Position numbers and translations under genes: made by a program. A stretch of DNA of 64,000 bases from an uncultured Lachnospiraceae bacterium (GTDB lineage: Bacteria; Bacillota; Clostridia; Lachnospirales; Lachnospiraceae). Under the pieces are notes generated by a model. The model was not told where the DNA came from, did not search any database, and worked only from the letters and a program-made list of their open reading frames with translations. Positions 6,597 to 63,825 of the stretch are shown piece after piece. The stretch's first letter is position 1; each line of letters begins with the position of its first letter. Where the stretch lies: the NCBI GenBank assembly GCA_900314445.1, contig OMVA01000103.1, positions 257 to 64,256 on the forward strand, written 5' to 3'.

Positions 6597-6607
6597 ATCT
6601 TCGGTTA

Positions 6608-6690
6608 ATCTCTGGAGAGTTCCCATTAAGGGACGCCGAAGGTGTAAAGCAGTAGACAGGCTGCCGATCTCTCAGGCAAATGGACAGAGC
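6608..6690 (+). ncRNA. Glycine riboswitch (single aptamer)
   Basis: Hallmark segments CTCTGGAGAG...CGCCGAAGG...CTCTCAGG...GGACAGAG; P1 CTCTG/CAGAG; lies upstream of an Ala/Gly symporter. Confidence 0.9.
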
Positions 6691-6746
6691 ATATACATTG
6701 CGTTTATATGCATTGGATTTATCAATCCCGTTCTAACACTCTTTAG

Positions 6747-6882: not shown

Positions 6883-8349
6883 ATGGAAACACTAAACAAG
6901 GTACTCGGTAACATTGACGATTTCGTCTGGGGCGTTCCACTGATCGTCGCAATCCTGGCTGTAGGTCTTTTACTTACAATCAGAACAAAGGGCTTGCAGT
7001 TCAGCAAACTGGGCTTAGGCTTCAAGTATGCCTTTTCTAGAGATAAGGCTCATCAGAAGGAAGGCGATCTTTCACCTTTCCAGGCTCTTTGTACAGCACT
7101 TTCTGCAACAATTGGTACAGGTAACATTGTCGGCGTAGCAACAGCTATTGCAGCCGGTGGTCCTGGTGCGCTTTTCTGGATGTGGATGGCAGCACTGGTT
7201 GGTACAGCAACAAAGTTTTCTGAGTGTATGCTTGCTGTAAAGTATCGTACTAAGGCAGAAGATGGTCATATCGTTGGTGGACCTTTCTATTATATTGAAA
7301 AGGGTATGGGACCAAAGTGGAAATGGCTTGCAAAGCTTTTCGCTTTCTTCGGACTTCTTGTAGGTCTTTGGGGAATTGGTACATTCTCACAGATTAATGG
7401 TATCACTTCAGCCGTTAAGAACTTCTTTGATCCAAACACTGCTCATGTAGCATTCCACGCATTTGACATGGACTACTCATGGTCAACAGTTATTACAGGA
7501 CTTCTCCTTACACTTGCAGTTGGTCTTGTAATCATCGGTGGTGTTAAGAGAATCTCAGCTGTTGCTGAAAAGATCGTTCCATTCATGGCCGTTCTTTACA
7601 TCGTAATCAGCTTAATCGTTCTGTTTACACACATTACATCAATTCCTGCAGCTTTATCAGTAATCATCAGAGCAGCATTTAATCCTAAAGCTGTAACAGG
7701 TGGTGCTGTTGGTTCTATCGTCGTAGCAATGCAGAAGGGTATCGCACGTGGTATCTTCTCTAACGAAGCAGGTATCGGTTCAGCTCCTATCGCAGCAGCT
7801 GCAGCAAGAACAGAAGAACCAGTTCACCAGGGGCTTATCTCTATGCTGGGAACATTTATTGATACAATCATCATCTGTACTATGACAGGTGTTACAATCG
7901 TAATCATGCAGCTTAGTAATGCATCTGCATTTGATGGCCTGGAAGGCGTTCAGATTACAACAAAGGCATTCCAGTTAGGTCTTCCAATTCCTGAGCAGTG
8001 GTCAGCGTTCATCCTGATGATCTGCCTTGTATTCTTCGCATTCACAACAATCCTTGGTTGGAATTACTACTCAGAGAGATGTCTGGATTACCTTTCACAC
8101 AACAATGTTAAGGCAATCAAGATCTTCAGATTCCTTTACATCCTCTGCGTATTCATCGGACCTTACATGACAGTATCTGCTGTATGGACAATCGCTGATA
8201 TCGTAAATGGTCTTATGGCTATTCCAAACCTCATCGCACTGGTTGCTCTGAATGGTGTAGTGGTAGCAGAAGTAAATGCTTACTTCAAAAAACTGAATAC
8301 AACTCCTAGTATTGAGTCACCTAGCATCGTAGAGTCAATTGATGAATAA
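6883..8349 (+). CDS. agcS: Alanine/glycine:cation symporter (AGCS family)
   Basis: ALSATIGTGNIVGVA, GGPGALFWMW, GGPFYYIEKG, RGIFSNEAGIGSAP, FAFTTILGW. Confidence 0.95.
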   Translation: METLNKVLGNIDDFVWGVPLIVAILAVGLLLTIRTKGLQFSKLGLGFKYAFSRDKAHQKEGDLSPFQALCTALSATIGTGNIVGVATAIAAGGPGALFWMWMAALVGTATKFSECMLAVKYRTKAEDGHIVGGPFYYIEKGMGPKWKWLAKLFAFFGLLVGLWGIGTFSQINGITSAVKNFFDPNTAHVAFHAFDMDYSWSTVITGLLLTLAVGLVIIGGVKRISAVAEKIVPFMAVLYIVISLIVLFTHITSIPAALSVIIRAAFNPKAVTGGAVGSIVVAMQKGIARGIFSNEAGIGSAPIAAAAARTEEPVHQGLISMLGTFIDTIIICTMTGVTIVIMQLSNASAFDGLEGVQITTKAFQLGLPIPEQWSAFILMICLVFFAFTTILGWNYYSERCLDYLSHNNVKAIKIFRFLYILCVFIGPYMTVSAVWTIADIVNGLMAIPNLIALVALNGVVVAEVNAYFKKLNTTPSIESPSIVESIDE

Positions 8350-13411: not shown

Positions 13412-13492
13412 ACTGTGAGTTGCTGGAGCTAACCCTTAACATCTAATACAATTCAGTTGTTCATAGTTTTCATAGTTTGTTTCTTTCGTTTC

Positions 13493-13541
13493 GGAACTGA
13501 CTTACCACTCCTAATAGGGGAGGGGGAGTCAGTTCCTTTTT
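13493..13541 (+). terminator. Intrinsic terminator
   Basis: GGAACTGACT 13493-13502 / AGTCAGTTCC 13527-13536 + TTTTT. Confidence 0.75.
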
Positions 13542-13615
13542 ATTTCCTTGCATTTGCCGGCCTTTTGGGTAAAATGAAAGAAGGTGTTTTGATAAAAATA
13601 AAGGGGGATAAAGCA

Positions 13616-14731
13616 ATGCCACATTCATCAGGAGGAGGCAGTCATGGTGGAGGAAGTCACGGAGGAGGCGGAAGACATTCATCCGGTGGAGGTAGCAGAA
13701 GCGGTGTTACCTTACCAAGAGTTTCTTCCTCAAAATTTAAAGGCTCTAAACGATATGTGAAATATAGACATGGTCGTCCAAAATATTTTTATTCGGATAT
13801 GGATCCAGCGAAAAGAGAGGTACGTCTGTGGATTCTTATTTTCTATCTACCTTTTCTGATTATGCTTTCTATTTCAATTAAGAATGCATTTGGATTCGCA
13901 AAACCACTTTCAACCAATTATGATCATAAGGTAATTGTAGAAGACAATTGTGGAGTCATCGATAATGAAAGAGCGTTAAGAGAAAGTTTTTCCAGGTTTT
14001 ATCAAAGAACTGGTATTACTCCTTCCATAATTACTGTACATGATGAAGACTGGAAGGATCATTATTCTTCCCTGGAAAATTATGCATATGAAAAGTATGT
14101 AAAGACTTTCAACGATGAAAGCCATTGGTTATTTCTTTACTCTGAGCCAGAACATCCGGATAAGGAATTTAATGATTGGTCCTGGGAAGGTATGCAGGGA
14201 AATGATACAGATCCTGTTCTTACACAGAGGATAACATCTGCCTTTAATGAAGAGTTTCAGAAGAATCTTTTGAAGGATAATGAGCATTCAGTAGGTCAGG
14301 CCCTTAAGATTTCTTTTGACTATATTACGCCAAAAACATTGAAGATGGATTTAAATACGCCGGCCTTGGTTGTTTTCTTATTGGTTCTGGCTTTTGTGTT
14401 CTTTCATGGTATGGGTATGGCAGGACTTACTCCATCTTACTTTAGAACCAGAGGAGCAGTGCTGGCACCAGAAGAATATGCCACAGATTCTACTTCCAGT
14501 AATGGCGTATCTCCTGCAGCCTTAATTCATTTAAATAAACAAAAAGAAAAATGTGTATTCTGCGACAGCATATTCCCAGCTGGCACCTATACCACTTGTC
14601 CAAATTGTGGAGGTTCCCTTGTGTCCATAGAATCTTCCCCAAAGGGAAATGGGAATCCGGCAGCAAGTAGTAATCCATATACTGGTGCGAGTGTGGGCCC
14701 AGGACGGCAGCCAACCTTCTGGGAAAAATGA
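13616..14731 (+). CDS. Membrane protein: Gly/Ser/His-rich N-terminus, TPM-like extracellular domain, C-terminal zinc ribbon
   Basis: Start MPHSSGGGSHGGG after an AAGGGG RBS; TM; TPM-like EDNCGVID...TGITPSIITV; TM; CVFC...CPNCG. Confidence 0.75.
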   Translation: MPHSSGGGSHGGGSHGGGGRHSSGGGSRSGVTLPRVSSSKFKGSKRYVKYRHGRPKYFYSDMDPAKREVRLWILIFYLPFLIMLSISIKNAFGFAKPLSTNYDHKVIVEDNCGVIDNERALRESFSRFYQRTGITPSIITVHDEDWKDHYSSLENYAYEKYVKTFNDESHWLFLYSEPEHPDKEFNDWSWEGMQGNDTDPVLTQRITSAFNEEFQKNLLKDNEHSVGQALKISFDYITPKTLKMDLNTPALVVFLLVLAFVFFHGMGMAGLTPSYFRTRGAVLAPEEYATDSTSSNGVSPAALIHLNKQKEKCVFCDSIFPAGTYTTCPNCGGSLVSIESSPKGNGNPAASSNPYTGASVGPGRQPTFWEK

Positions 14732-45703: not shown

Positions 45704-45790
45704 AGAGCAGGCTTAGTAAAGAGTGAGTTTCAAAGTGAACAGGCTTTAAAGCAATTAAGTGGAATGGCTTCTTTCCTAGAGGGGGACACT

Positions 45791-46165
45791 ATGAAGCATA
45801 GAATTCAGGAATATTTAAAGTATATAGATGGAATACTCCAGGAGAATAAAAATGGTCAGGAGAAGGATGCTGGCTATTGGGATCAGGAGATTGTAAAACA
45901 TTTGGAGCAGATTCGCTTCTTTCAACATGAGAGGTTAGTGCATCTGATTGTTTTTAGTCTTGTGGCCGTTTGTACTGTAATGAGTATTCTTTTTTATGTG
46001 GCATACGAAAAAATAATACTTTTGCCACTTATTCTTATGCTCTTTGTTTTACTTGTTCCATATTGTATGCATTACTATCTTTTGGAAAATAGTGTTCAAA
46101 AAATGTATGACCAATATGATCAGATGCAGGCAAAGAAGAAAGAATATTTCCAGGTAAAAAAATAA
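45791..46165 (+). CDS. Hypothetical two-TM membrane protein
   Basis: FFQHERLVHLIV then two TMs, HYYLLENSVQKMY; RBS GAGGGG. Confidence 0.75.
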   Translation: MKHRIQEYLKYIDGILQENKNGQEKDAGYWDQEIVKHLEQIRFFQHERLVHLIVFSLVAVCTVMSILFYVAYEKIILLPLILMLFVLLVPYCMHYYLLENSVQKMYDQYDQMQAKKKEYFQVKK

Positions 46166-47532: not shown

Positions 47533-47602
47533 GGCCTGTATCTTTTAAGAAAAGGCCATGTGTGTTATATTTGTAGCGATTCTGAGTGAAGGGGCGGTAA
47601 GT

Positions 47603-48949
47603 ATGACATACGAGCAGGTTATTTCATATATTGAAGATCGTAACAAGCTTGGTTCTGTACCAGGGCTTGATAATATTAATCATTTGCTGAAACGGCTCGG
47701 CAATCCAGAAAAGAAGTTACCAGCGATTCATATTGCTGGTACAAATGGAAAAGGCAGTATTATGTCTTTTGTGGAGCAGGGCCTGATGGAAGCGGGATAC
47801 ATGGCAGGCAGATATATATCACCTGCCATTTTTAATTATAGGGAACGCTGGCAGATTGGACATGAGTTCATCAGCCAGGAAGATACAGCGAAGATTTTAT
47901 CTAAGGTCATTGCTGAAGTTGAAGAGATGGAGAGACTGGGAGAGGGGCAACCTACATCCTTTGAAATCGAAACAGCTGCAGCATTCGTATATTTTCTGGA
48001 AAAGGGCTGTGATCTAATGCTCATTGAGTGTGGCATGGGTGGCAGACTGGATGCTACAAATGTACTTGGCCAGGATACAGTGAATGTGCTGGCCTCCATT
48101 TCCAGAGACCATATGCAATTTCTGGGAAATACAATAGAAGAAATAACAAAAGAAAAGCTGGGCATTATTAAAGATAATGGCTATCTTTTTACCTACCCGA
48201 ATGTGGGAGTTGCCAAAGAGGTAACGGAAGAATTTTGCCATGAGCATCACGTAAAACTCATCCCGGCAGATTCGGAAGCCCTTCTTGTAAAAGAAACAGA
48301 TTTTACGGGCAGTTTATTTGCATATAAGGGAAAAGATTATAGAATTCAAATGGGGGGAGATTTCCAGATTCTCAATGCCATTACTGCCATTGAAGTGATG
48401 GAAGGCCTGAAGGAAGCTAGTGCTTCCTGGAAGACGGAGATTTCAATCCCTGAGGATATCATTCAGTCGGCTCTCAGTCATACCCATTGGCCAGGACGTT
48501 TTATGGTGCTGAATAAGGAACCCCTCCTGATTGTGGATGGTGCTCATAATGAAGATGCCTGGATTCATTTACAAAAGAGTCTGACGCAGTATTTTCCAGA
48601 GATGCGTTTTCATTTTGTGCTTGGTGTTTTGAAAGACAAGGAGGTGAGCCGAATGCTGGACCTTTTACTTCCTTTGGCAAAAAGTATTTTCACCATTGCT
48701 TCGGACAATCCTCGTGCCCTGGCCGCAGAGAATTTGGCAAATGAGATTCGCAGCCGAGAAGAAAATCTTAAGGAAGACAGTGCTACTTTCCAGTACACTG
48801 TTCCTTCGGTTTCTTCCAGAGATAGCGTTGGCGCTGCTGTAGAGAGTGCCATCGCGGATGCAGACCGGGATCATTTGCCTGTAATTTGTTGTGGTTCCCT
48901 TTCCTTTATCGGAGATGTAATCAGGGACTTTGAAAGGATTAGTTATTAA
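47603..48949 (+). CDS. folC: Folylpolyglutamate synthase/dihydrofolate synthase
   Basis: HIAGTNGKGS, PTSFEIET, ECGMGGRLDATN, DHMQFLG, DGAHNE, CGSLSFIG. Confidence 0.94.
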   Translation: MTYEQVISYIEDRNKLGSVPGLDNINHLLKRLGNPEKKLPAIHIAGTNGKGSIMSFVEQGLMEAGYMAGRYISPAIFNYRERWQIGHEFISQEDTAKILSKVIAEVEEMERLGEGQPTSFEIETAAAFVYFLEKGCDLMLIECGMGGRLDATNVLGQDTVNVLASISRDHMQFLGNTIEEITKEKLGIIKDNGYLFTYPNVGVAKEVTEEFCHEHHVKLIPADSEALLVKETDFTGSLFAYKGKDYRIQMGGDFQILNAITAIEVMEGLKEASASWKTEISIPEDIIQSALSHTHWPGRFMVLNKEPLLIVDGAHNEDAWIHLQKSLTQYFPEMRFHFVLGVLKDKEVSRMLDLLLPLAKSIFTIASDNPRALAAENLANEIRSREENLKEDSATFQYTVPSVSSRDSVGAAVESAIADADRDHLPVICCGSLSFIGDVIRDFERISY

Positions 48950-49437
48950 TGGATATGAAGAGAATGGAAGCTATTCTGAATCACAAGCTCTTTCAGGATA
49001 CGCTTCATCAAATAGAAGAGAAGGAAGTTCATCGTGAGTTTTGCAGACATGGTATGCCTCATTTGCTGGACACAGCCAGGATTGCTTATATCACATGCCT
49101 GGAAAATGGACTGCCCTTGGAAAAGGACATTGTTTATGCCACGGCTCTTCTTCATGATCTGGGGCGGGCGTGTCAGGATGAAGAAGGCTATGACCATCGA
49201 TTGGGAGGACTTCCTATTATTGAAGAAATTTTGAAGGATTCCGGATTTGATGACAGTGAAATCCGGGAGATTAAGAAGGCTGTGGCTTCCCATGGTCAGA
49301 AACCACAGGATTCGGACCAGTCCCTTTCTGCCGTTCTCTATCGGGCGGATAAACAATCAAGAAATTGCTTTTGGTGTCCAGCGGCATTACAATGCTACTG
49401 GCCAGAGAATCAAAGAAATATGTCAATAAAATCGTAA
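48949..49437 (+). CDS. HD-domain phosphohydrolase in the folate operon
   Basis: H...ALLHDLGR...H...YRADK metal motif; TAATG coupling to folC. Confidence 0.88.
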   Translation: MDMKRMEAILNHKLFQDTLHQIEEKEVHREFCRHGMPHLLDTARIAYITCLENGLPLEKDIVYATALLHDLGRACQDEEGYDHRLGGLPIIEEILKDSGFDDSEIREIKKAVASHGQKPQDSDQSLSAVLYRADKQSRNCFWCPAALQCYWPENQRNMSIKS

Positions 49438-49448
49438 AGGTGAAGACT

Positions 49449-51128
49449 ATGGATCAGATTATCATTCGTAACTTAAAAGTGTTTGCTCATCATGGCGTTC
49501 TTGCAGAAGAAAAGAAGAATGGACAGGACTTTTTTGTGAACGCTATTTTAGAAATGGATTTAAGAAAAGCTGCTCTGGATGATAATTTAAATGAGTCAGT
49601 GAATTATGATGAAGCGTCTCATTTAATCGTGAATTCTATGCAGGAGGAAACCTTCGATACCATTGAAGCCGCTGCAGAAACTACGGCGAGACATTTGCTT
49701 CTGGAATATCCAGTATTAAAGAATGTAACCATTCAAATTGGTAAGCCACACGCACCAATTCAGTTAGATTTTGATACAGTGCTTGTAAAGCTTAAGAGAG
49801 GATGGCACACAGCTTTCCTTGGCATTGGTTCCAATATGGGAGACAGAAAGCATTTCCTGCAATATGCAGTGGACCAGCTTGGCGCGGATGAATCCATTCG
49901 TGTGGAAAAGGTTTCTACCTTTGTGAATACAGAACCTTATGGACCTGTGGAACAGGATGACTTTTTAAATGGTGTACTTGAAGTGTCCACCTTACTGACG
50001 CCTCACGAACTTCTTTCCGTGGCAAATGATATTGAGAAAGAAGCGGGAAGAGAGAGAAAGGTTCATTGGGGACCAAGAACTTTAGATATTGATATTCTTT
50101 TTTATGATGACTGGATTGTATCGGATGAAAGACTTCGTATTCCACATCCAGAAATTGCTAAGAGAACTTTTGTGCTGGAACCTATGTGCGAAATCGCACC
50201 TTACTATAGGCATCCAATTCAGCAGAAGACTGTATCGGAATTACTGGATCATCTGGGCCGCCATGCAACAGAGAGAGAAGATATCGAATTAAATTATGAA
50301 GAAGTTCCTTCATTAGATATGGAAGATGCTACAGTTGTTTATGCCGGTGTTCCTGGAGCTTATGCTGAGGAAGCAGCCAATCGTTACTTTGGTAAGCAGG
50401 TGCAGTATTGTAATGTAAAAACATTCGCCGATGTGGTAAATGAAGTGGCTGCGGGAAAGGCTGACTTCGGTGTTATTCCAATCGAAAATTCCAGCGCTGG
50501 CTTTGTGGCTGGTAATTATGACATCATCCGAGAGGGTGGTATCAGTATTATCGCTGAAGTAGTTGTGGATATTCACCACGCCCTTCTGGGACTTCCGGAT
50601 TCCAGCCTTACAGATATTAAAAAGGTATATTCTCATCCACAGGGTATTATGCAGTGCAGAGAATTTATTGAGGAACATGACTATACAGCGGAGAGTGTAA
50701 CTAATACAGCTCTTGCAGCCAAGAAGGTTCGTGATAAGGGAGATCCTACAGCGGCAGCCATTGCCAGTGAGCGTGCCGGTAAGCTTTACGACCTGAAGGT
50801 GCTGAAGAAGCATATTAACTTCCAGAATGACAACTCTACAAAGTTTGTAGTTGTGGTAAAGAACAGAATTTGTCTTTCAGATGCAACCAATATTAGTATT
50901 TGCTTTACAACCAAGCATAAGGTTGGTGCCCTTTATGATATTATGGGCATTTTCTTCCACAACCGCCTGAACATGACATCCATCGAATCCCGCCCATCCC
51001 TGAAGCACAAGTGGGAATACATGTTCTATGTGGATTTCGAGGGTAAGCTTACAGACCGAAATGTGCAGAAGGCCCTGGGAGAGATTAATGCCAACAGTGA
51101 TGAATTGCTTGTATTGGGAACTTATTAA
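49449..51128 (+). CDS. folK: Trifunctional fusion: dihydroneopterin aldolase (FolB) + HPPK (FolK) + prephenate dehydratase/ACT (PheA, no chorismate mutase domain)
   Basis: FolB: FAHHGVLAEE, SVNY, IEAAAE, GKPHAPI; FolK: GIGSNMGDR, QDDFLN, WGPRTLDIDIL, IPHP; PDT: GVPGAY, PIENSSAG, SHPQ, NSTKF, ACT IESRP; single open frame. Confidence 0.92.
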   Translation: MDQIIIRNLKVFAHHGVLAEEKKNGQDFFVNAILEMDLRKAALDDNLNESVNYDEASHLIVNSMQEETFDTIEAAAETTARHLLLEYPVLKNVTIQIGKPHAPIQLDFDTVLVKLKRGWHTAFLGIGSNMGDRKHFLQYAVDQLGADESIRVEKVSTFVNTEPYGPVEQDDFLNGVLEVSTLLTPHELLSVANDIEKEAGRERKVHWGPRTLDIDILFYDDWIVSDERLRIPHPEIAKRTFVLEPMCEIAPYYRHPIQQKTVSELLDHLGRHATEREDIELNYEEVPSLDMEDATVVYAGVPGAYAEEAANRYFGKQVQYCNVKTFADVVNEVAAGKADFGVIPIENSSAGFVAGNYDIIREGGISIIAEVVVDIHHALLGLPDSSLTDIKKVYSHPQGIMQCREFIEEHDYTAESVTNTALAAKKVRDKGDPTAAAIASERAGKLYDLKVLKKHINFQNDNSTKFVVVVKNRICLSDATNISICFTTKHKVGALYDIMGIFFHNRLNMTSIESRPSLKHKWEYMFYVDFEGKLTDRNVQKALGEINANSDELLVLGTY

Positions 51129-51154
51129 GACATATATAAGTATATAAATAATCC

Positions 51155-51200
51155 TGGCAAATGAACTGTTCATGGAAATATGTGCGCAGTCCATTTGCCA
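51155..51200. repeat. Intergenic palindromic repeat family copy (inverted pair)
   Basis: TGGCAAATGAACTG...ATATGTGCGCAGTCCATTTGCCA. Confidence 0.88.
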
Positions 51201-51249
51201 GAATAAAGATAGATAGGGCTTTTCTGGGAAAATAAATAGAATTTCTCTG

Positions 51250-51278
51250 TTGACAAAAGACTTTGTGTAATGTATTAT
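51250..51278 (+). promoter_or_regulatory. Sigma-A promoter of infC-rpmI-rplT
   Basis: TTGACA-N17-TATTAT with TG extension. Confidence 0.8.
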
Positions 51279-51292
51279 GTCTATCGTTGTGT

Positions 51293-51416
51293 AGCAAGTA
51301 GAGTATCCACTCTCACCTTGAGTTGCAGATGGCGACCGGGTTCATAGTTGATAGACACACTATTTTTGTGTGCTTCTTCTTTGTGGATACCTGTCTTTGC
51401 GGACAGGTTTTTTTAA
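51293..51416 (+). ncRNA. Ribosomal protein L20 leader (transcription attenuator)
   Basis: AAGTAGAGTATCCACTCTCACC 5' motif; GTATCCAC 51303-51310 pairs with GTGGATAC 51383-51390, overlapping terminator ACCTGTC-tttgcg-GACAGGT + T-run. Confidence 0.85.
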
Positions 51417-51435
51417 TGTGTAGGAGGATAAGACA

Positions 51436-51939
51436 ATAGAGTACATTACAAATGACAGAATCAGAGCAAAGGAAGTAAGAGTTATTGGTTCAAAAGGTAA
51501 TCAGCTTGGAGTAATGTCCCTTCAGGAAGCGCGTGATGCTGCCGAGAAGGAAGGCGTTGATCTTGTATTGGTTTCACCTAATGCGAAACCTCCAGTATGC
51601 AGAATCGTCGATTATGGAAAATTCCGTTATGAGCAGATCAAAAAGGAAAAGGAATCGAAGAAGAAGCAGAAAGTGGTTGAAATTAAGGAAGTTAGAATTT
51701 CACCAAACATTGACGAGAATGATTTAGCAACTAAGATAAATCAGGCAAGAAAGTTCCTTGAAAAAGGCAATCGAGTTAAGGTAACACTCCGTTTCCGCGG
51801 AAGAGAACTTGCTTACGTAAAGCAGAGCAAACCAATTCTTGATGCATTCGCAGAGAAACTTTCCGACGTGTCGACTGTAGATAAGGCGGCAAAATTTGAA
51901 GGCAGAAGCATGTTCATGTTTCTTGCTGCAAAGAAATAG
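51436..51939 (+). CDS. infC: Translation initiation factor IF-3, non-canonical ATA start
   Basis: [42 protein letters not shown]; AGGAGG 8 nt before in-frame ATA 51436; in-frame stop at 51421. Confidence 0.93.
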
Positions 51940-52746: not shown

Positions 52747-52830
52747 GCGGGAGTGCTGGAATTGGCAGACAGGCTAGACTAAGGATCTAGTGATGGAAAC
52801 GTCGTGTGGGTTCAAGTCCCATCTCCCGCA
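52747..52830 (+). tRNA. tRNA-Leu, anticodon AAG (CCA not encoded)
   Basis: Acceptor GCGGGAG/CTCCCGC, discriminator A; anticodon arm CTAGA-CTAAGGA-TCTAG; long variable arm; T arm GTGGG-TTCAAGT-CCCAT. Confidence 0.95.
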
Positions 52831-62193: not shown

Positions 62194-62428
62194 AAGATAA
62201 CCTCCCCTTATAAATATTTTTGCTTGTCAGGAACGAAGAATATGCTAACATGACTCTTTTTTTCAGGGGGGAGAATTCTTCGAAAAGCACCCTGGCATCG
62301 CTGAATTGCTAAAAAGTGCTGAATATGATACTTTCGATACAGACTTTTATGCTAAGAATCTGCGCACACTACCTTTGTTTGGCCGGGTGTGTTATAGTAG
62401 AAGCATTGTATTTTTTATGGAGGGCAAT

Positions 62429-63259
62429 ATGAGTAAAGCTGATGAACTTTATATTCAGATGTGTAAAGATATCCTGGAAAATGGAATCGATACAAAGGGA
62501 GAGAAGGTTCGCCCGAAGTGGGAAGATGGCACATCTGCTTATACAATAAAAAAATTTGGTGTGGTAAATCGTTATGATTTGAGCAAGGAGTTCCCTGCTA
62601 TCACACTTAGAAAGACATATATTAAATCTGCAATTGATGAGATTCTCTGGATCTGGCAGAAAAAGTCTAATAACATTAAGGATCTGAAGAGCCACATCTG
62701 GGATGAATGGGCTGACGAAGATGGCTCCATTGGTAAGGCTTATGGCTATCAGCTTGGCGTGAAACATCAGTACAAGGAAGGAGAGTTTGATCAGGTAGAC
62801 CGTGTTCTCTACGATTTGAAAAACAATCCTTATAGTCGTCGTATCATGACAAATATCTATGTGCATCAGGATCTTCACGAGATGAATCTTTATCCTTGTG
62901 CCTATTCCATGACATTCAATGTTACAGGAAATAAGCTGAATGCAATCCTTAACCAGCGCTCTCAGGATGTACTGGCAGCTGGTAACTGGAATGTGGTTCA
63001 GTATTCGGCTCTTCTTATGATGATTGCTCAGGCAACAGGCTTTGAAGCTGGAGAACTGGTACACGTTATTGCAGATGCACATATCTACGACCGTCACGTT
63101 CCAATTATTAAGGAGCTGATTGAAAGACCAACTTTCCCTGCACCAAAGGTAACTTTAAATCCGGATGTAAAAGACTTCTACAAGTTTACTGTAGATGATT
63201 TCAAAATCGAGGATTATGAGGCAGGACCACAGGTTAAGGATATTCCGATTGCAATCTAG
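62429..63259 (+). CDS. thyA: Thymidylate synthase
   Basis: DELLWIW-like DEILWIW, SRRIM, LYPCA (catalytic Cys), NQRSQD, NVVQY, HIYDRH; ATG 62429 follows GGAGGG. Confidence 0.97.
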   Translation: MSKADELYIQMCKDILENGIDTKGEKVRPKWEDGTSAYTIKKFGVVNRYDLSKEFPAITLRKTYIKSAIDEILWIWQKKSNNIKDLKSHIWDEWADEDGSIGKAYGYQLGVKHQYKEGEFDQVDRVLYDLKNNPYSRRIMTNIYVHQDLHEMNLYPCAYSMTFNVTGNKLNAILNQRSQDVLAAGNWNVVQYSALLMMIAQATGFEAGELVHVIADAHIYDRHVPIIKELIERPTFPAPKVTLNPDVKDFYKFTVDDFKIEDYEAGPQVKDIPIAI

Positions 63260-63321: not shown

Positions 63322-63825
63322 ATGAAACTGATTGCTGCTGTTGATCAGAACTGGGCTATTGGAAATAGAGATGATCTTCTTGTACATATTCCAGAAGACC
63401 AGAAGAATTTTAGAAGAATCACAACAGGAAATGTTGTGGTGCTTGGACGTAAGACATTATCTGGATTTCCTGGTGGTCGTCCTTTAAAGGATCGTTTAAA
63501 TGTTATTTTGACAAAGAATCCTGACTTTGAAGCTGGGGATGCTGTGATTGTTCGATCCCAGGAAGAACTGTTTGAACAGTTAAAGAAGTATCCAAGTAAT
63601 GAGGTTTATGTCATCGGTGGCGGTACTCTTTATAAGATGCTGGAACCATATTGCGATGAGGCAATCATTACGAAGATTGACTATTCTTATCAGGCGGATA
63701 CATATTTCCCTAACCTTGATGAGAAGGAAAATTGGGAGCTTGTAGAAGAGGGAGAAGAACAGACATACTTCGATTTGATTTATCATTTTGATACTTATCG
63801 TAATAAAACTCCAAAGGAAATTTGA
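63322..63825 (+). CDS. folA: Dihydrofolate reductase
   Basis: AIGNRDDLL, PEDQKNF, GRKT, PLKDRLN, VIGGG, ADTYFP. Confidence 0.96.
   Translation: MKLIAAVDQNWAIGNRDDLLVHIPEDQKNFRRITTGNVVVLGRKTLSGFPGGRPLKDRLNVILTKNPDFEAGDAVIVRSQEELFEQLKKYPSNEVYVIGGGTLYKMLEPYCDEAIITKIDYSYQADTYFPNLDEKENWELVEEGEEQTYFDLIYHFDTYRNKTPKEI

What the first reader, a model, noticed from the sequence alone, without database searches (positions are those of the whole stretch)
49449..51128. FolB-FolK-prephenate dehydratase triple fusion linking folate and phenylalanine synthesis
Seen: intact motifs for all three enzymes plus the ACT domain in one 559-aa frame. The join (about 50260-50330, RHATEREDIELNYEEVPSLD) looks like the linker that normally follows a chorismate mutase domain, which is absent. 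Known: FolB-FolK fusion (SulD) and CM-PDT fusion are each common; both folate (via pABA) and Phe draw on chorismate; FolB is octameric and PDT is Phe-regulated through ACT. Inference: either a fixed deletion that swapped CM for FolBK, or a selected fusion that could place pterin synthesis under Phe allostery or build a large oligomeric metabolon. I do not recognise this architecture as described.
Basis: partly seen in the sequence, partly recalled or inferred. Interest (0 to 1): 0.72.

Follow-up and report, generated by a model that had tools for sequence, protein, structure and literature searches.

The report
Folate–phenylalanine triple enzyme gene fusion
A gut bacterium of ruminants makes two folate-pathway enzymes and a phenylalanine-pathway enzyme as a single protein, because neighbouring genes merged after one domain was lost; the merger is real, recurs in related bacteria and is undescribed, but probably reflects gene order rather than a new metabolic link.

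Summary
Window 49449-51128 (+) is one uninterrupted 559-aa ORF with FolB (dihydroneopterin aldolase), FolK (HPPK), prephenate dehydratase (PDT) and an ACT domain, and no chorismate mutase (CM). Contigs from four independent runs cover it without a difference. More than 100 protein clusters (40-68% identity) from Lachnospiraceae gut and rumen assemblies share the architecture, with key catalytic and Phe-site residues kept.

Related genomes preserve the route:
- folBK and a normal CM-PDT-ACT pheA a few kb apart;
- the two genes directly adjacent;
- folBK adjacent to a CM-less PDT, in one case separated by a single in-frame stop codon;
- the fused gene.

Trees of both halves split the fusions into three clades that never group together, which suggests two or three independent origins.

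The most likely function is three unchanged activities on one chain, with Phe feedback acting on the PDT part only. Coupling of folate synthesis to Phe is untested. I found no paper describing the architecture. Half of the fusions sampled, including this one, carry TKF in place of the catalytic TRF triad. I rate it a new variant of a known kind, of moderate interest.

The parts
49449..51128 (+). Whole fused gene: FolB-FolK-PDT-ACT, 559 aa plus stop. Start ATG 49449 is preferred over the upstream ATG 49392 (578 aa) and TTG 49365 (587 aa).
   Evidence: Homologues start 'MDxIxI' at this ATG. An AGGTGA Shine-Dalgarno-like sequence lies 7 nt upstream.
49449..49799 (+). FolB domain (dihydroneopterin aldolase), residues 1-117
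   Evidence: Pfam PF02152 E 1.9e-32 and TIGR00525 at 98 bits against a cut-off of 72. E21, Y53, E73 and K99 are invariant in 60 fusions. The model matches 5f3m with target TM-score 0.95.
49809..50228 (+). FolK/HPPK domain, residues 121-260
   Evidence: PF01288 E 2.6e-40 and TIGR01498 at 147 bits against a cut-off of 54. The 'WGPRTxDxDI' motif, P232-H233, R239 and F241 are conserved. Together with FolB it is colinear with S. pneumoniae SulD 2cg8 (residues 1-269, E 3.5e-64; target TM-score 0.89).
50229..50261 (+). Natural C-terminal tail of FolBK ('TVSELLDHLGR'), residues 261-271. In unfused relatives the stop codon follows here.
   Evidence: Tails of unfused FolBK proteins: L015 '...TVSEMLDELGR*' and L055 'TILELKEALEEKES*'.
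50262..50330 (+). pheA-derived linker, residues 272-294 ('HATEREDIELNYEEVPSLDMEDA'). It is the former CM-to-PDT interdomain linker. The join itself is HATER, residues 272-276.
   Evidence: Junction table. BLASTP to L055 PheA residues 95-125, E 5e-07. pLDDT is below 50 only at residues 272-276 and 348-352, and residues 284-286 are predicted as a strand.
50331..50864 (+). Prephenate dehydratase catalytic domain, residues 295-472. It carries T464-K465-F466 (window 50838-50846) in place of the TRF triad.
   Evidence: PF00800 E 8.3e-57. Matches 2qmx at E 1.5e-48. Target TM-score 0.87-0.89 to 6vh5 and 2qmx. The PIENS and SHPQ..QC motifs are conserved, and TKF/TRF counts are.
50898..51125 (+). ACT regulatory domain, residues 484-559, with GALY (493-496) and ESRP (513-516)
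   Evidence: Pfam ACT is weak (2.5e-4). ESRP is present in 60 of 60 fusions and G493/L495 are invariant. The motifs are defined in PMC13217925.
48949..49437 (+). HD-domain gene directly upstream (11-nt gap). Candidate dihydroneopterin-triphosphate phosphohydrolase of the folate operon.
   Evidence: PF01966. The position is conserved in most related loci. HDIG 'FolQ2' candidates in folate gene clusters are described in PMC1971073.
47558..48949 (+). folC-like gene (Mur ligase M and C domains), first folate gene of the same-strand cluster
   Evidence: Pfam. The order folC-(folE)-HD-(folP)-folBK is conserved in 80 loci.

Best explanation
The gene encodes one polypeptide carrying three ordinary enzymes. 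These are dihydroneopterin aldolase and HPPK (consecutive steps of the pterin branch of folate synthesis, as in SulD-type FolB-FolK proteins) and prephenate dehydratase with its Phe-binding ACT domain (the step that makes phenylpyruvate, the immediate precursor of phenylalanine).

It arose because folBK and pheA (CM-PDT-ACT) are conserved neighbours in Lachnospiraceae. The genes became directly adjacent and translationally coupled. The CM domain of pheA was lost. Loss of the folBK stop codon then joined the reading frames, so the FolBK tail now runs into the former CM-PDT linker.

Shown: the ORF, its conservation, the intermediate gene arrangements, and the homology of the linker. Inferred: all three activities persist, they act independently (the pathways share no intermediate and the join is flexible and poorly conserved), Phe feedback acts on the PDT part only, and prephenate comes from a CM encoded elsewhere in the genome. 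The fusion probably arose two or three times.
For: The ORF is intact and identical in four independent runs. About 105 clusters at 90% identity have the same architecture, at 40-68% identity and full coverage.

Catalytic and ligand residues are kept in 60 diverse fusions: FolB E21/Y53/E73/K99, HPPK WGPRTxDxDI, PDT PxENS and SHxQ..QC, and ACT ESRP. Every domain is conserved (52-68% mean pairwise identity) against 26% in the linker. The AF2 model has mean pLDDT 88, and its halves match 2cg8 and solved PDT structures with target TM-scores of 0.87-0.89.

A graded series exists in 80 loci:
- folBK and CM-PDT 1-8 kb apart in 20 loci;
- directly adjacent in 8 loci;
- adjacent to a CM-less PDT in 3 loci;
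- fused in 6 loci plus the window.

In L005 the folBK stop codon TAG is in frame with the PDT ORF, and a GAGGAG Shine-Dalgarno sequence sits inside the FolBK tail. Its 287-aa PDT is seen on 12 contigs.

Fusion linkers of 34-41 aa equal the FolBK tail (11-20 aa) plus the CM-PDT linker (about 22-24 aa).

In NJ bootstraps the three fusion clades are each 100% supported. They never group together: 0/200 for the PDT half, 0/200 for the FolBK half and 0/300 concatenated. Each clade is closer to unfused relatives than to the other fusion clades. All three clades sit in folate operons but with different flanking genes.
Against: No activity has been measured.

The window protein and 30 of 60 fusions have TKF in place of the catalytic TRF, whereas 32 of 32 unfused relatives have TRF. 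The NCBIfam PDT equivalog score is just under its cut-off (217.2 against 219). A PDT-fold protein, GqqA, fails to complement pheA (PMC4879726), so homology alone does not prove PDT activity.

No CM was found in the 64-kb window, and the rest of the genome could not be searched. folP and folE are also absent from the window, although most relatives keep at least folP in the operon.

Three independent origins that all lack CM, with no FolBK-CM-PDT form seen, could point to selection rather than accident. The trees are NJ only, and clade A is weakly supported in the FolBK tree (24/200).
Confidence: 0.75

Rival explanations
1. The fusion is selected for a functional coupling. One version: the FolB octamer core (as in SulD) replaces the lost, dimer-forming CM domain as the scaffold that holds PDT-ACT dimers together. 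Another version: Phe binding to ACT is passed on to the pterin enzymes, tying folate precursor synthesis to aromatic amino-acid status.
For: The same architecture appears in three clades that do not group together. CM is missing every time, and no FolBK-CM-PDT form was seen among the listed hits. Linker length is held at 34-41 aa. A FolC-CM-PDT fusion (P0123) also exists, and folate genes and pheA are neighbours across many Lachnospiraceae. That AroQ-type CM is an obligate dimer and that PDT acts as a dimer or tetramer is background knowledge, not tested here.
Against: The linker is the least conserved part (26% identity). Residues 272-276 are predicted disordered, and pTM 0.52 gives no fixed arrangement of the domains. 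The unfused CM-less PDTs of L005, L006 and L015 evidently work without either scaffold. In most loci with the two genes apart, the DUF5050 gene between them is on the opposite strand, so the neighbourhood is synteny and not co-transcription. The pathways share no metabolite.
Confidence: 0.15
2. The PDT-ACT part no longer makes phenylpyruvate. It has become a purely regulatory or ligand-binding module, or acts on another substrate.
For: TKF replaces TRF only in a subclade of fusions that includes the window. The NCBIfam equivalog score falls just below its cut-off. The PDT-fold protein GqqA has a non-PDT activity and does not complement pheA (7am0 is among the fold matches). CM is lost and no other CM is seen in the window.
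Against: T464, F466, the P-x-E-N-S motif and the S-H-x-Q..Q-C motif are invariant or nearly so, and ESRP is present in 60 of 60 fusions. R to K is a conservative change, and the other 29 fusions keep TRF. PDT and ACT are as conserved as HPPK (66-68%). The best sequence and fold matches are bona fide PDTs with bound Phe (2qmx, 6vh5).
Confidence: 0.07
3. Artefact: an assembly or sequencing error hides a stop codon, or a chimeric contig joins two genes.
For: None found.
Against: Four independent runs give identical contigs across the whole ORF. The cluster has 80 members on many contigs. More than 100 diverged clusters share the architecture.
Confidence: 0.01

Closest known systems
SulD-type bifunctional FolB-FolK (DHNA-HPPK) of Streptococcus pneumoniae, PDB 2cg8
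   Same: Residues 1-269 are colinear with 2cg8 residues 1-268 (E 3.5e-64, 38% identity, target TM-score 0.89). The domain order and catalytic residues are the same.
   Different: SulD ends where the window protein continues into a 23-residue linker and a 265-residue PDT-ACT module.
P-protein / PheA (CM-PDT-ACT), e.g. E. coli PheA and the Lachnospiraceae PheA next to folBK (L055, 376 aa)
   Same: The PDT and ACT domains and the linker that precedes PDT are homologous. The ESRP and GALV-type Phe-site motifs are kept.
   Different: The N-terminal CM_2 domain (residues 7-85 in L055) is absent and FolB-FolK takes its place. The window has TKF instead of TRF.
Monofunctional PDT-ACT enzymes with solved structures (Chlorobium tepidum 2qmx, Brucella 6vh5, S. 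aureus 2qmw)
   Same: Full-length match to residues 293-559 (E 1.5e-48 to 2qmx; target TM-score 0.87-0.89).
   Different: These are stand-alone proteins of about 280 aa. Here the module is the C-terminal half of a 559-aa chain.
Eukaryotic FolB-FolK-FolP trifunctional folate enzyme (PMC4224340)
   Same: A trifunctional fusion that starts with FolB-FolK, with a history of repeated fusion and fission (title and abstract).
   Different: There all three parts catalyse consecutive folate steps. Here the third part belongs to an unrelated pathway.
Other PDT and folate fusions found here: FolC-CM-PDT (P0123), PDH-PDT (P0159, P0172), aminotransferase-PDT (P0191), CM-PDT-DAHPS (P0151, P0183), FolB-HPPK-DHFR (P0109 and others)
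   Same: They show that both PDT and FolBK fuse readily with neighbouring genes in this group of bacteria.
   Different: Apart from FolC-CM-PDT, the partners are within one pathway. None combines FolB-HPPK with PDT.

Membership tests
Dihydroneopterin aldolase FolB (PF02152 / TIGR00525) | Profile score above the curated cut-off | tested here: met
   PF02152 scores 112.6 bits against 31.8. TIGR00525 scores 98.2 against 72.15.
Dihydroneopterin aldolase FolB (PF02152 / TIGR00525) | Catalytic Glu and Lys plus the substrate-binding Tyr and Glu (S. aureus E22, K100, Y54, E74; numbering from memory) | tested here: met
   E21, K99, Y53 and E73 are invariant in 60 fusions. Their mapping onto the S. aureus residues rests on my own knowledge.
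Dihydroneopterin aldolase FolB (PF02152 / TIGR00525) | Octameric assembly and aldolase activity | not testable with these tools
   Only a monomer model was made.
HPPK FolK (PF01288 / TIGR01498) | Profile score above the curated cut-off | tested here: met
   PF01288 scores 137.9 bits against 25.7. TIGR01498 scores 146.9 against 54.1.
HPPK FolK (PF01288 / TIGR01498) | Mg/ATP and pterin-site residues (E. coli R82, R92, D95, D97, H115, F123; numbering from memory) | tested here: met
   R201, R210, D213, D215, H233 and F241 are invariant. The fold matches E. coli HPPK with target TM-score 0.90.
SulD-type FolB-FolK bifunctional protein | FolB then HPPK on one chain, colinear with 2cg8 | tested here: met
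   Residues 1-269 match 2cg8 residues 1-268, E 3.5e-64.
Prephenate dehydratase (PF00800; NCBIfam PRK11898) | Profile score above the curated cut-off | tested here: inconclusive
   Pfam PDT scores 192.4 bits against 25.2 (met). The NCBIfam equivalog PRK11898 scores 217.2 against 219, narrowly not met.
Prephenate dehydratase (PF00800; NCBIfam PRK11898) | TRF catalytic triad (PMC13217925) | tested here: inconclusive
   The window has T464-K465-F466. Thr and Phe are kept and Arg is replaced by Lys. Among 60 fusions there are 30 TKF, 29 TRF and 1 PRF. All 32 unfused relatives have TRF.
Prephenate dehydratase (PF00800; NCBIfam PRK11898) | ACT domain with the GALV and ESRP Phe-site motifs (PMC13217925) | tested here: met
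   ESRP is present in 60 of 60. GALV appears as GALY, GSLY or GALF, with G and L invariant. The Pfam ACT score itself is below its cut-off (21.2 against 27).
Prephenate dehydratase (PF00800; NCBIfam PRK11898) | Prephenate to phenylpyruvate activity, inhibited by Phe | not testable with these tools
   Needs an enzyme assay or complementation.
P-protein (bifunctional CM-PDT, PheA) | N-terminal AroQ-type chorismate mutase domain (PF01817) | tested here: not met
   There is no CM_2 hit in the protein or in any ORF of at least 60 aa in the window, using an HMM built from 30 neighbouring CM domains. The P-protein profile matches only from its position 99 onward. It is therefore not a P-protein, although its PDT half descends from one.

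The most novel reading that the evidence does not exclude
The repeated, CM-less joining of PDT-ACT to FolB-FolK is convergent and selected. The FolB octamer would take over the oligomerising role of the lost chorismate mutase dimer, giving an 8-chain particle with paired PDT-ACT modules. That particle could also let phenylalanine binding tune pterin (folate precursor) synthesis. If so, this would be a new allosteric link between aromatic amino-acid status and folate supply in gut anaerobes.
Probability: 0.13. Interest if true: 0.65.

Novelty: new variant of a known kind. Interest (0 to 1): 0.42.

Why it matters
Gene fusions are widely used as 'Rosetta stone' evidence that two proteins work together. 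Here a conserved and probably recurrent fusion joins enzymes of pathways that share only a distant precursor, chorismate. The intermediate gene arrangements are still present in living relatives: genes apart, adjacent, CM lost, a single stop codon left, fused. That makes it a clean natural example of how multifunctional enzymes arise from gene order, and a warning for function prediction by fusion.

It also matters for annotation. Public records name these proteins only 'HPPK' or only 'prephenate dehydratase', so metabolic reconstructions of rumen and gut Lachnospiraceae may score Phe or folate synthesis as missing. If the fusion does turn out to couple Phe sensing to pterin synthesis, it would be a new regulatory link.

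Tried and rejected
- Sequencing or assembly error: rejected.
- Strain-unique accident: rejected, with >100 clusters in three clades.
- Regulatory RNA such as a T-box or THF riboswitch: Rfam finds nothing near the operon. The window holds only a tRNA at 52747 and a glycine riboswitch at 6602.
- Chorismate mutase elsewhere in the window: an HMM built from 30 CM domains found nothing. Pfam on ten small or medium ORFs of 88-167 aa found neither CM class. Pfam on further larger ORFs found no aromatic-pathway genes.
- CM remnant in the N-termini of the CM-less PDTs of L006 and L015: not significant (E 9.7; no CM_2 hit).
- FolB-FolK-CM-PDT forms: none among the 120 listed full-length hits or the 150 representatives.
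- Whole-genome questions (a second PDT, CM, folP, folE, pab genes): not answerable. Only ±10 kb around matches is available. The runs labelled organism A hold about 0.95 million contigs, so they are not clean isolate genomes.
- A Biopython bootstrap timed out and a module import failed. I replaced them with my own NJ code.
- Literature searches on PDT with DHNA, HPPK or folK returned only unrelated papers.
- Internal translation start for a separate PDT: M291 is not conserved and, on my reading, has no good Shine-Dalgarno sequence.
Full report
**1. The observation**

Window 49449-51128 (+) is one open reading frame of 559 codons from ATG to TAA. Pfam finds three domains far above their cut-offs: FolB (residues 4-115), HPPK (123-251) and PDT (296-472). 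A weak ACT match lies at 491-545. NCBIfam agrees. folB TIGR00525 and folK TIGR01498 pass their cut-offs. The PDT equivalog PRK11898 covers residues 295-559 at 217.2 bits, just under its cut-off of 219. That probably explains why public records name relatives only 'HPPK' or only 'prephenate dehydratase'.

No chorismate mutase domain is present. The P-protein profile aligns only from its position 99 onward.

Contigs of four independent public runs cover 48800-51600 with no difference and no gap. These are a coded 'organism A' sample, a gut metagenome, a bovine metatranscriptome and a sheep gut metagenome. The 90%-identity cluster has 80 member sequences on many contigs. The ORF is real.

**2. 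How widespread it is**

A search of 5.8 billion proteins returned about 105 clusters with the full FolB+HPPK+PDT(+ACT) architecture. They are 559-598 aa long, 40-68% identical and cover the whole query. The few source names given are 'Eubacterium sp.' and 'Lachnospiraceae bacterium' MAGs.

In species-representative genomes the true fusion was seen in six loci, all Lachnospiraceae-type MAGs (architectures assigned):
- L001 and L002: rumen RUG MAGs;
- L003: UBA9790;
- L004: BRZ_LN bin26;
- L007: E04 bin283;
- L008: Eubacterium sp. RGIG9269.

The window sequence itself occurs in bovine and sheep gut samples.

**3. Integrity of the parts**

The following are invariant in 60 diverse fusions:
- FolB E21, Y53, E73 and K99;
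- HPPK R201, R203, W207-G-P-R-T211, D213, D215, P232-H233, R239 and F241;
- PDT P344, E346-N-S348, S395-H396, Q398, Q402-C403 and F466;
- ACT G493, L495 and E513-S-R-P516.

The TRF triad and the GALV and ESRP motifs are the accepted catalytic and Phe-site signatures of PDT (PMC13217925).

Mean pairwise identity within the window's clade is 0.52 (FolB), 0.66 (HPPK), 0.66 (PDT) and 0.68 (ACT), against 0.26 for the linker. No domain is decaying.

The AlphaFold2 model has mean pLDDT 88.4. Only residues 272-276 (the join) and 348-352 fall below 50. Its halves match S. pneumoniae SulD (2cg8) and solved PDTs (6vh5, 2qmx, 2qmw) with target TM-scores of 0.86-0.89. The sequence matches are E 3.5e-64 and 1.5e-48.

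There is one deviation. The window has T464-K465-F466 in place of TRF. Thirty of the 60 fusions have TKF and 29 have TRF, while 32 of 32 unfused relatives have TRF.

**4. Where it came from**

I called ORFs in the 80 related loci and scored them with domain HMMs. They form a graded series.

(a) In 20 loci the folate operon folC-(folE)-HD-folP-folBK is followed 1-8 kb downstream by a normal CM-PDT-ACT pheA. In seven of the eight loci I examined, a DUF5050 gene lies in the gap, mostly on the opposite strand.

(b) In eight loci folBK and CM-PDT-ACT are directly adjacent. In Anaerostipes L055 they are 1 nt apart and the Shine-Dalgarno sequence lies inside the FolBK tail codons.

(c) In three loci folBK is adjacent to a PDT that has no recognisable CM: L005 (287 aa), L006 (325 aa) and L015 (326 aa).

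(d) In six loci and the window the genes are fused.

L005 is colinear with the fusions except for one in-frame stop codon: '...GAG GAG AAA TAG ACG ATG...', which reads '...ENEEK*TMELYDYDKLFVMENSLDVNADTVVAYQGVPGAF'. Its separate 287-aa PDT is recorded on 12 contigs, so this state is real. A single base change in that stop codon would give a fusion.

**5. The junction**

In every fusion the segment between the end of HPPK and the start of PDT is 34-41 residues long. In unfused relatives FolBK has a tail of 11-20 residues after HPPK ('TVSEMLDELGR*'). PheA has about 22-24 residues between CM and PDT ('EEDSYVRKKFKQVDRLEINSD'). The two add up to the fusion linker.

The window's 'IELNYEEVPSLDME-DATVVYAGVPGAY' aligns to residues 95-125 of L055 PheA, downstream of that protein's CM_2 domain at residues 7-85. 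The roughly 88-residue helical CM domain is exactly what is missing.

**6. One origin or several**

NJ trees with bootstrapping split the fusions into three clades:
- A: the window, L001-L004, L008 and most database hits;
- B: L007, P0094, P0103 and P0105;
- C: P0092, P0097, P0098 and P0107.

Each clade has full support in the PDT and concatenated trees. The three never form one group: 0/200 (PDT), 0/200 (FolBK) and 0/300 (concatenated). B groups with CM-containing neighbours L019 and L074 in 220 of 300 replicates. C groups with L068, L047 and L078 in 222 of 300.

Each clade is closer to unfused relatives (mean distance 0.72-0.84) than to the other fusion clades (0.96-1.03). The exhaustive representative search agrees. 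The window's PDT half is 44-45% identical to several unfused PDT relatives of 300-381 aa (four of them have PheA-like lengths and offsets), but only 40% identical to the two listed representatives of the other fusion clades, P0137 and P0105.

The flanking genes also differ:
- A: deacetylase-folC-HD-fusion-infC;
- B: folC-folP-fusion-UDG;
- C: folC-folE-folP-fusion.

I conclude that two or three independent fusions are likely. NJ trees are not decisive, and clade A is weakly resolved in the FolBK tree (24/200).

**7. How it most likely works**

The protein should catalyse three reactions:
- 7,8-dihydroneopterin to 6-hydroxymethyl-dihydropterin (FolB);
- pyrophosphorylation of that product (FolK);
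- prephenate to phenylpyruvate (PDT), with Phe feedback through ACT.

These assignments follow from established knowledge of the families together with the residue conservation shown here. No activity was measured.

The two halves share no intermediate. The join is flexible and poorly conserved, and pTM 0.52 gives no defined arrangement of the domains. I therefore regard the halves as functionally independent and the fusion as a product of conserved gene order.

Prephenate must come from a CM encoded elsewhere. None is in the 64-kb window, and the rest of the genome could not be searched.

**8. Rivals**

(i) Selected coupling. The FolB octamer might replace the CM dimer as a scaffold for PDT-ACT pairs, or Phe sensing might be passed to the pterin enzymes. 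The recurrence of the fusion, the consistent absence of CM and a separate FolC-CM-PDT fusion (P0123) speak for it. The flexible linker, the viable unfused CM-less PDTs and the opposite-strand gene between the two loci in many genomes speak against it. I give this about 0.15.

(ii) A changed role for the PDT part. The TKF variant, the sub-threshold equivalog score and the precedent of GqqA are hints. GqqA is a PDT-fold protein that does not complement pheA (PMC4879726). The otherwise complete motif set argues against it. I give this about 0.07.

(iii) Artefact. Refuted.

**9. Comparison with what is known**

The N-terminal half is a SulD-type FolB-FolK protein. The C-terminal half descends from a P-protein but fails the defining CM feature, so it is not a P-protein. 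It resembles monofunctional PDT-ACT enzymes.

Trifunctional FolB-FolK-FolP fusions are known in eukaryotes (PMC4224340). HDIG phosphohydrolase candidates in folate gene clusters were noted in the 2007 comparative-genomics survey, whose text does not mention prephenate or chorismate mutase (PMC1971073). Four full-text searches found no description of a FolB-FolK-PDT protein.

**10. Verdict**

This is a real, conserved and so far undescribed domain architecture made of well-known enzymes, with an unusually well-documented and probably recurrent evolutionary path. It is a new variant of a known kind and of moderate interest (0.42). It is valuable as an example of fusion by gene order and as an annotation fix. 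It would become more interesting only if Phe-dependent coupling or scaffold dependence were demonstrated.

Noticed in passing
window 50838-50846 (T464-K465-F466): The PDT catalytic triad reads TKF in place of TRF. The R-to-K change is seen in 30 of 60 fusions and in none of 32 unfused relatives. Its effect on activity or substrate is unknown.
   Followed up: partly
window 48949-49437; L005, L006, L008: An HD-domain gene sits inside the folate cluster. It matches the HDIG 'FolQ2' candidate dihydroneopterin-triphosphate phosphohydrolase noted in PMC1971073. In L005, L006 and L008 it is fused to FolC (584-613 aa).
   Followed up: partly
P0123 (824 aa): A second kind of folate-phenylalanine fusion: Mur-ligase (FolC-like) + CM_2 + PDT on one chain. 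Here the CM domain is retained.
   Followed up: no
P0109, P0113, P0117, P0119: FolB-HPPK-DHFR fusions of about 440-460 aa occur among the closest unfused FolBK relatives.
   Followed up: no
window 47558-51128 versus L004, L007, L008, L055, L081, L083: The window's folate cluster lacks folP and folE, and so do L001 and L002. Most relatives keep folP (and some folE) between folC/HD and folBK. Neither gene was found anywhere in the 64-kb window. thyA (62306-63259) and folA (63322-63825) lie 11 kb downstream.
   Followed up: partly
L005 10823-10831: folBK and a CM-less PDT are separated only by TAG-ACG-ATG in the same reading frame, with a GAGGAG Shine-Dalgarno sequence in the FolBK tail. This is either the immediate precursor of a fusion or a secondary split. 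The 287-aa product is seen on 12 contigs.
   Followed up: yes
L024 10958-11995 (-) and the same position in L043, L053, L067, L068, L078, L079: A membrane-anchored DUF5050 protein of 339-400 aa is conserved between folBK and pheA in many Lachnospiraceae, usually on the opposite strand.
   Followed up: partly
window 51250-51513: A near-consensus promoter-like site (TTGACA-17-TATTAT, 51250-51278) and a hairpin with a T-run (51389-51408) precede infC (51514). This may be a leader or attenuator of the infC-rpmI-rplT operon. No Rfam family matched it.
   Followed up: no
window 6602-6697: A glycine riboswitch (57.9 bits) lies upstream of a sodium:alanine symporter-family gene (6883-8349).
   Followed up: no
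P0159, P0172, P0191, P0151, P0183, P0130, P0122: Many other PDT fusions exist among close relatives: prephenate dehydrogenase-PDT, aminotransferase-PDT, CM-PDT-DAHP synthase, PDT-DAHP synthase-CM, and a tandem PDT.
   Followed up: partly
L009, L011: Two contigs labelled as Bacteroides sp. MAGs carry a Lachnospiraceae-like folC-HD-folP-folBK cluster that is 56-57% identical to the window's FolBK. This could be mis-binning or gene transfer.
   Followed up: no
window 13457-14731 and 45764-46165: ORFs of 424 aa and 133 aa have no Pfam match.
   Followed up: no
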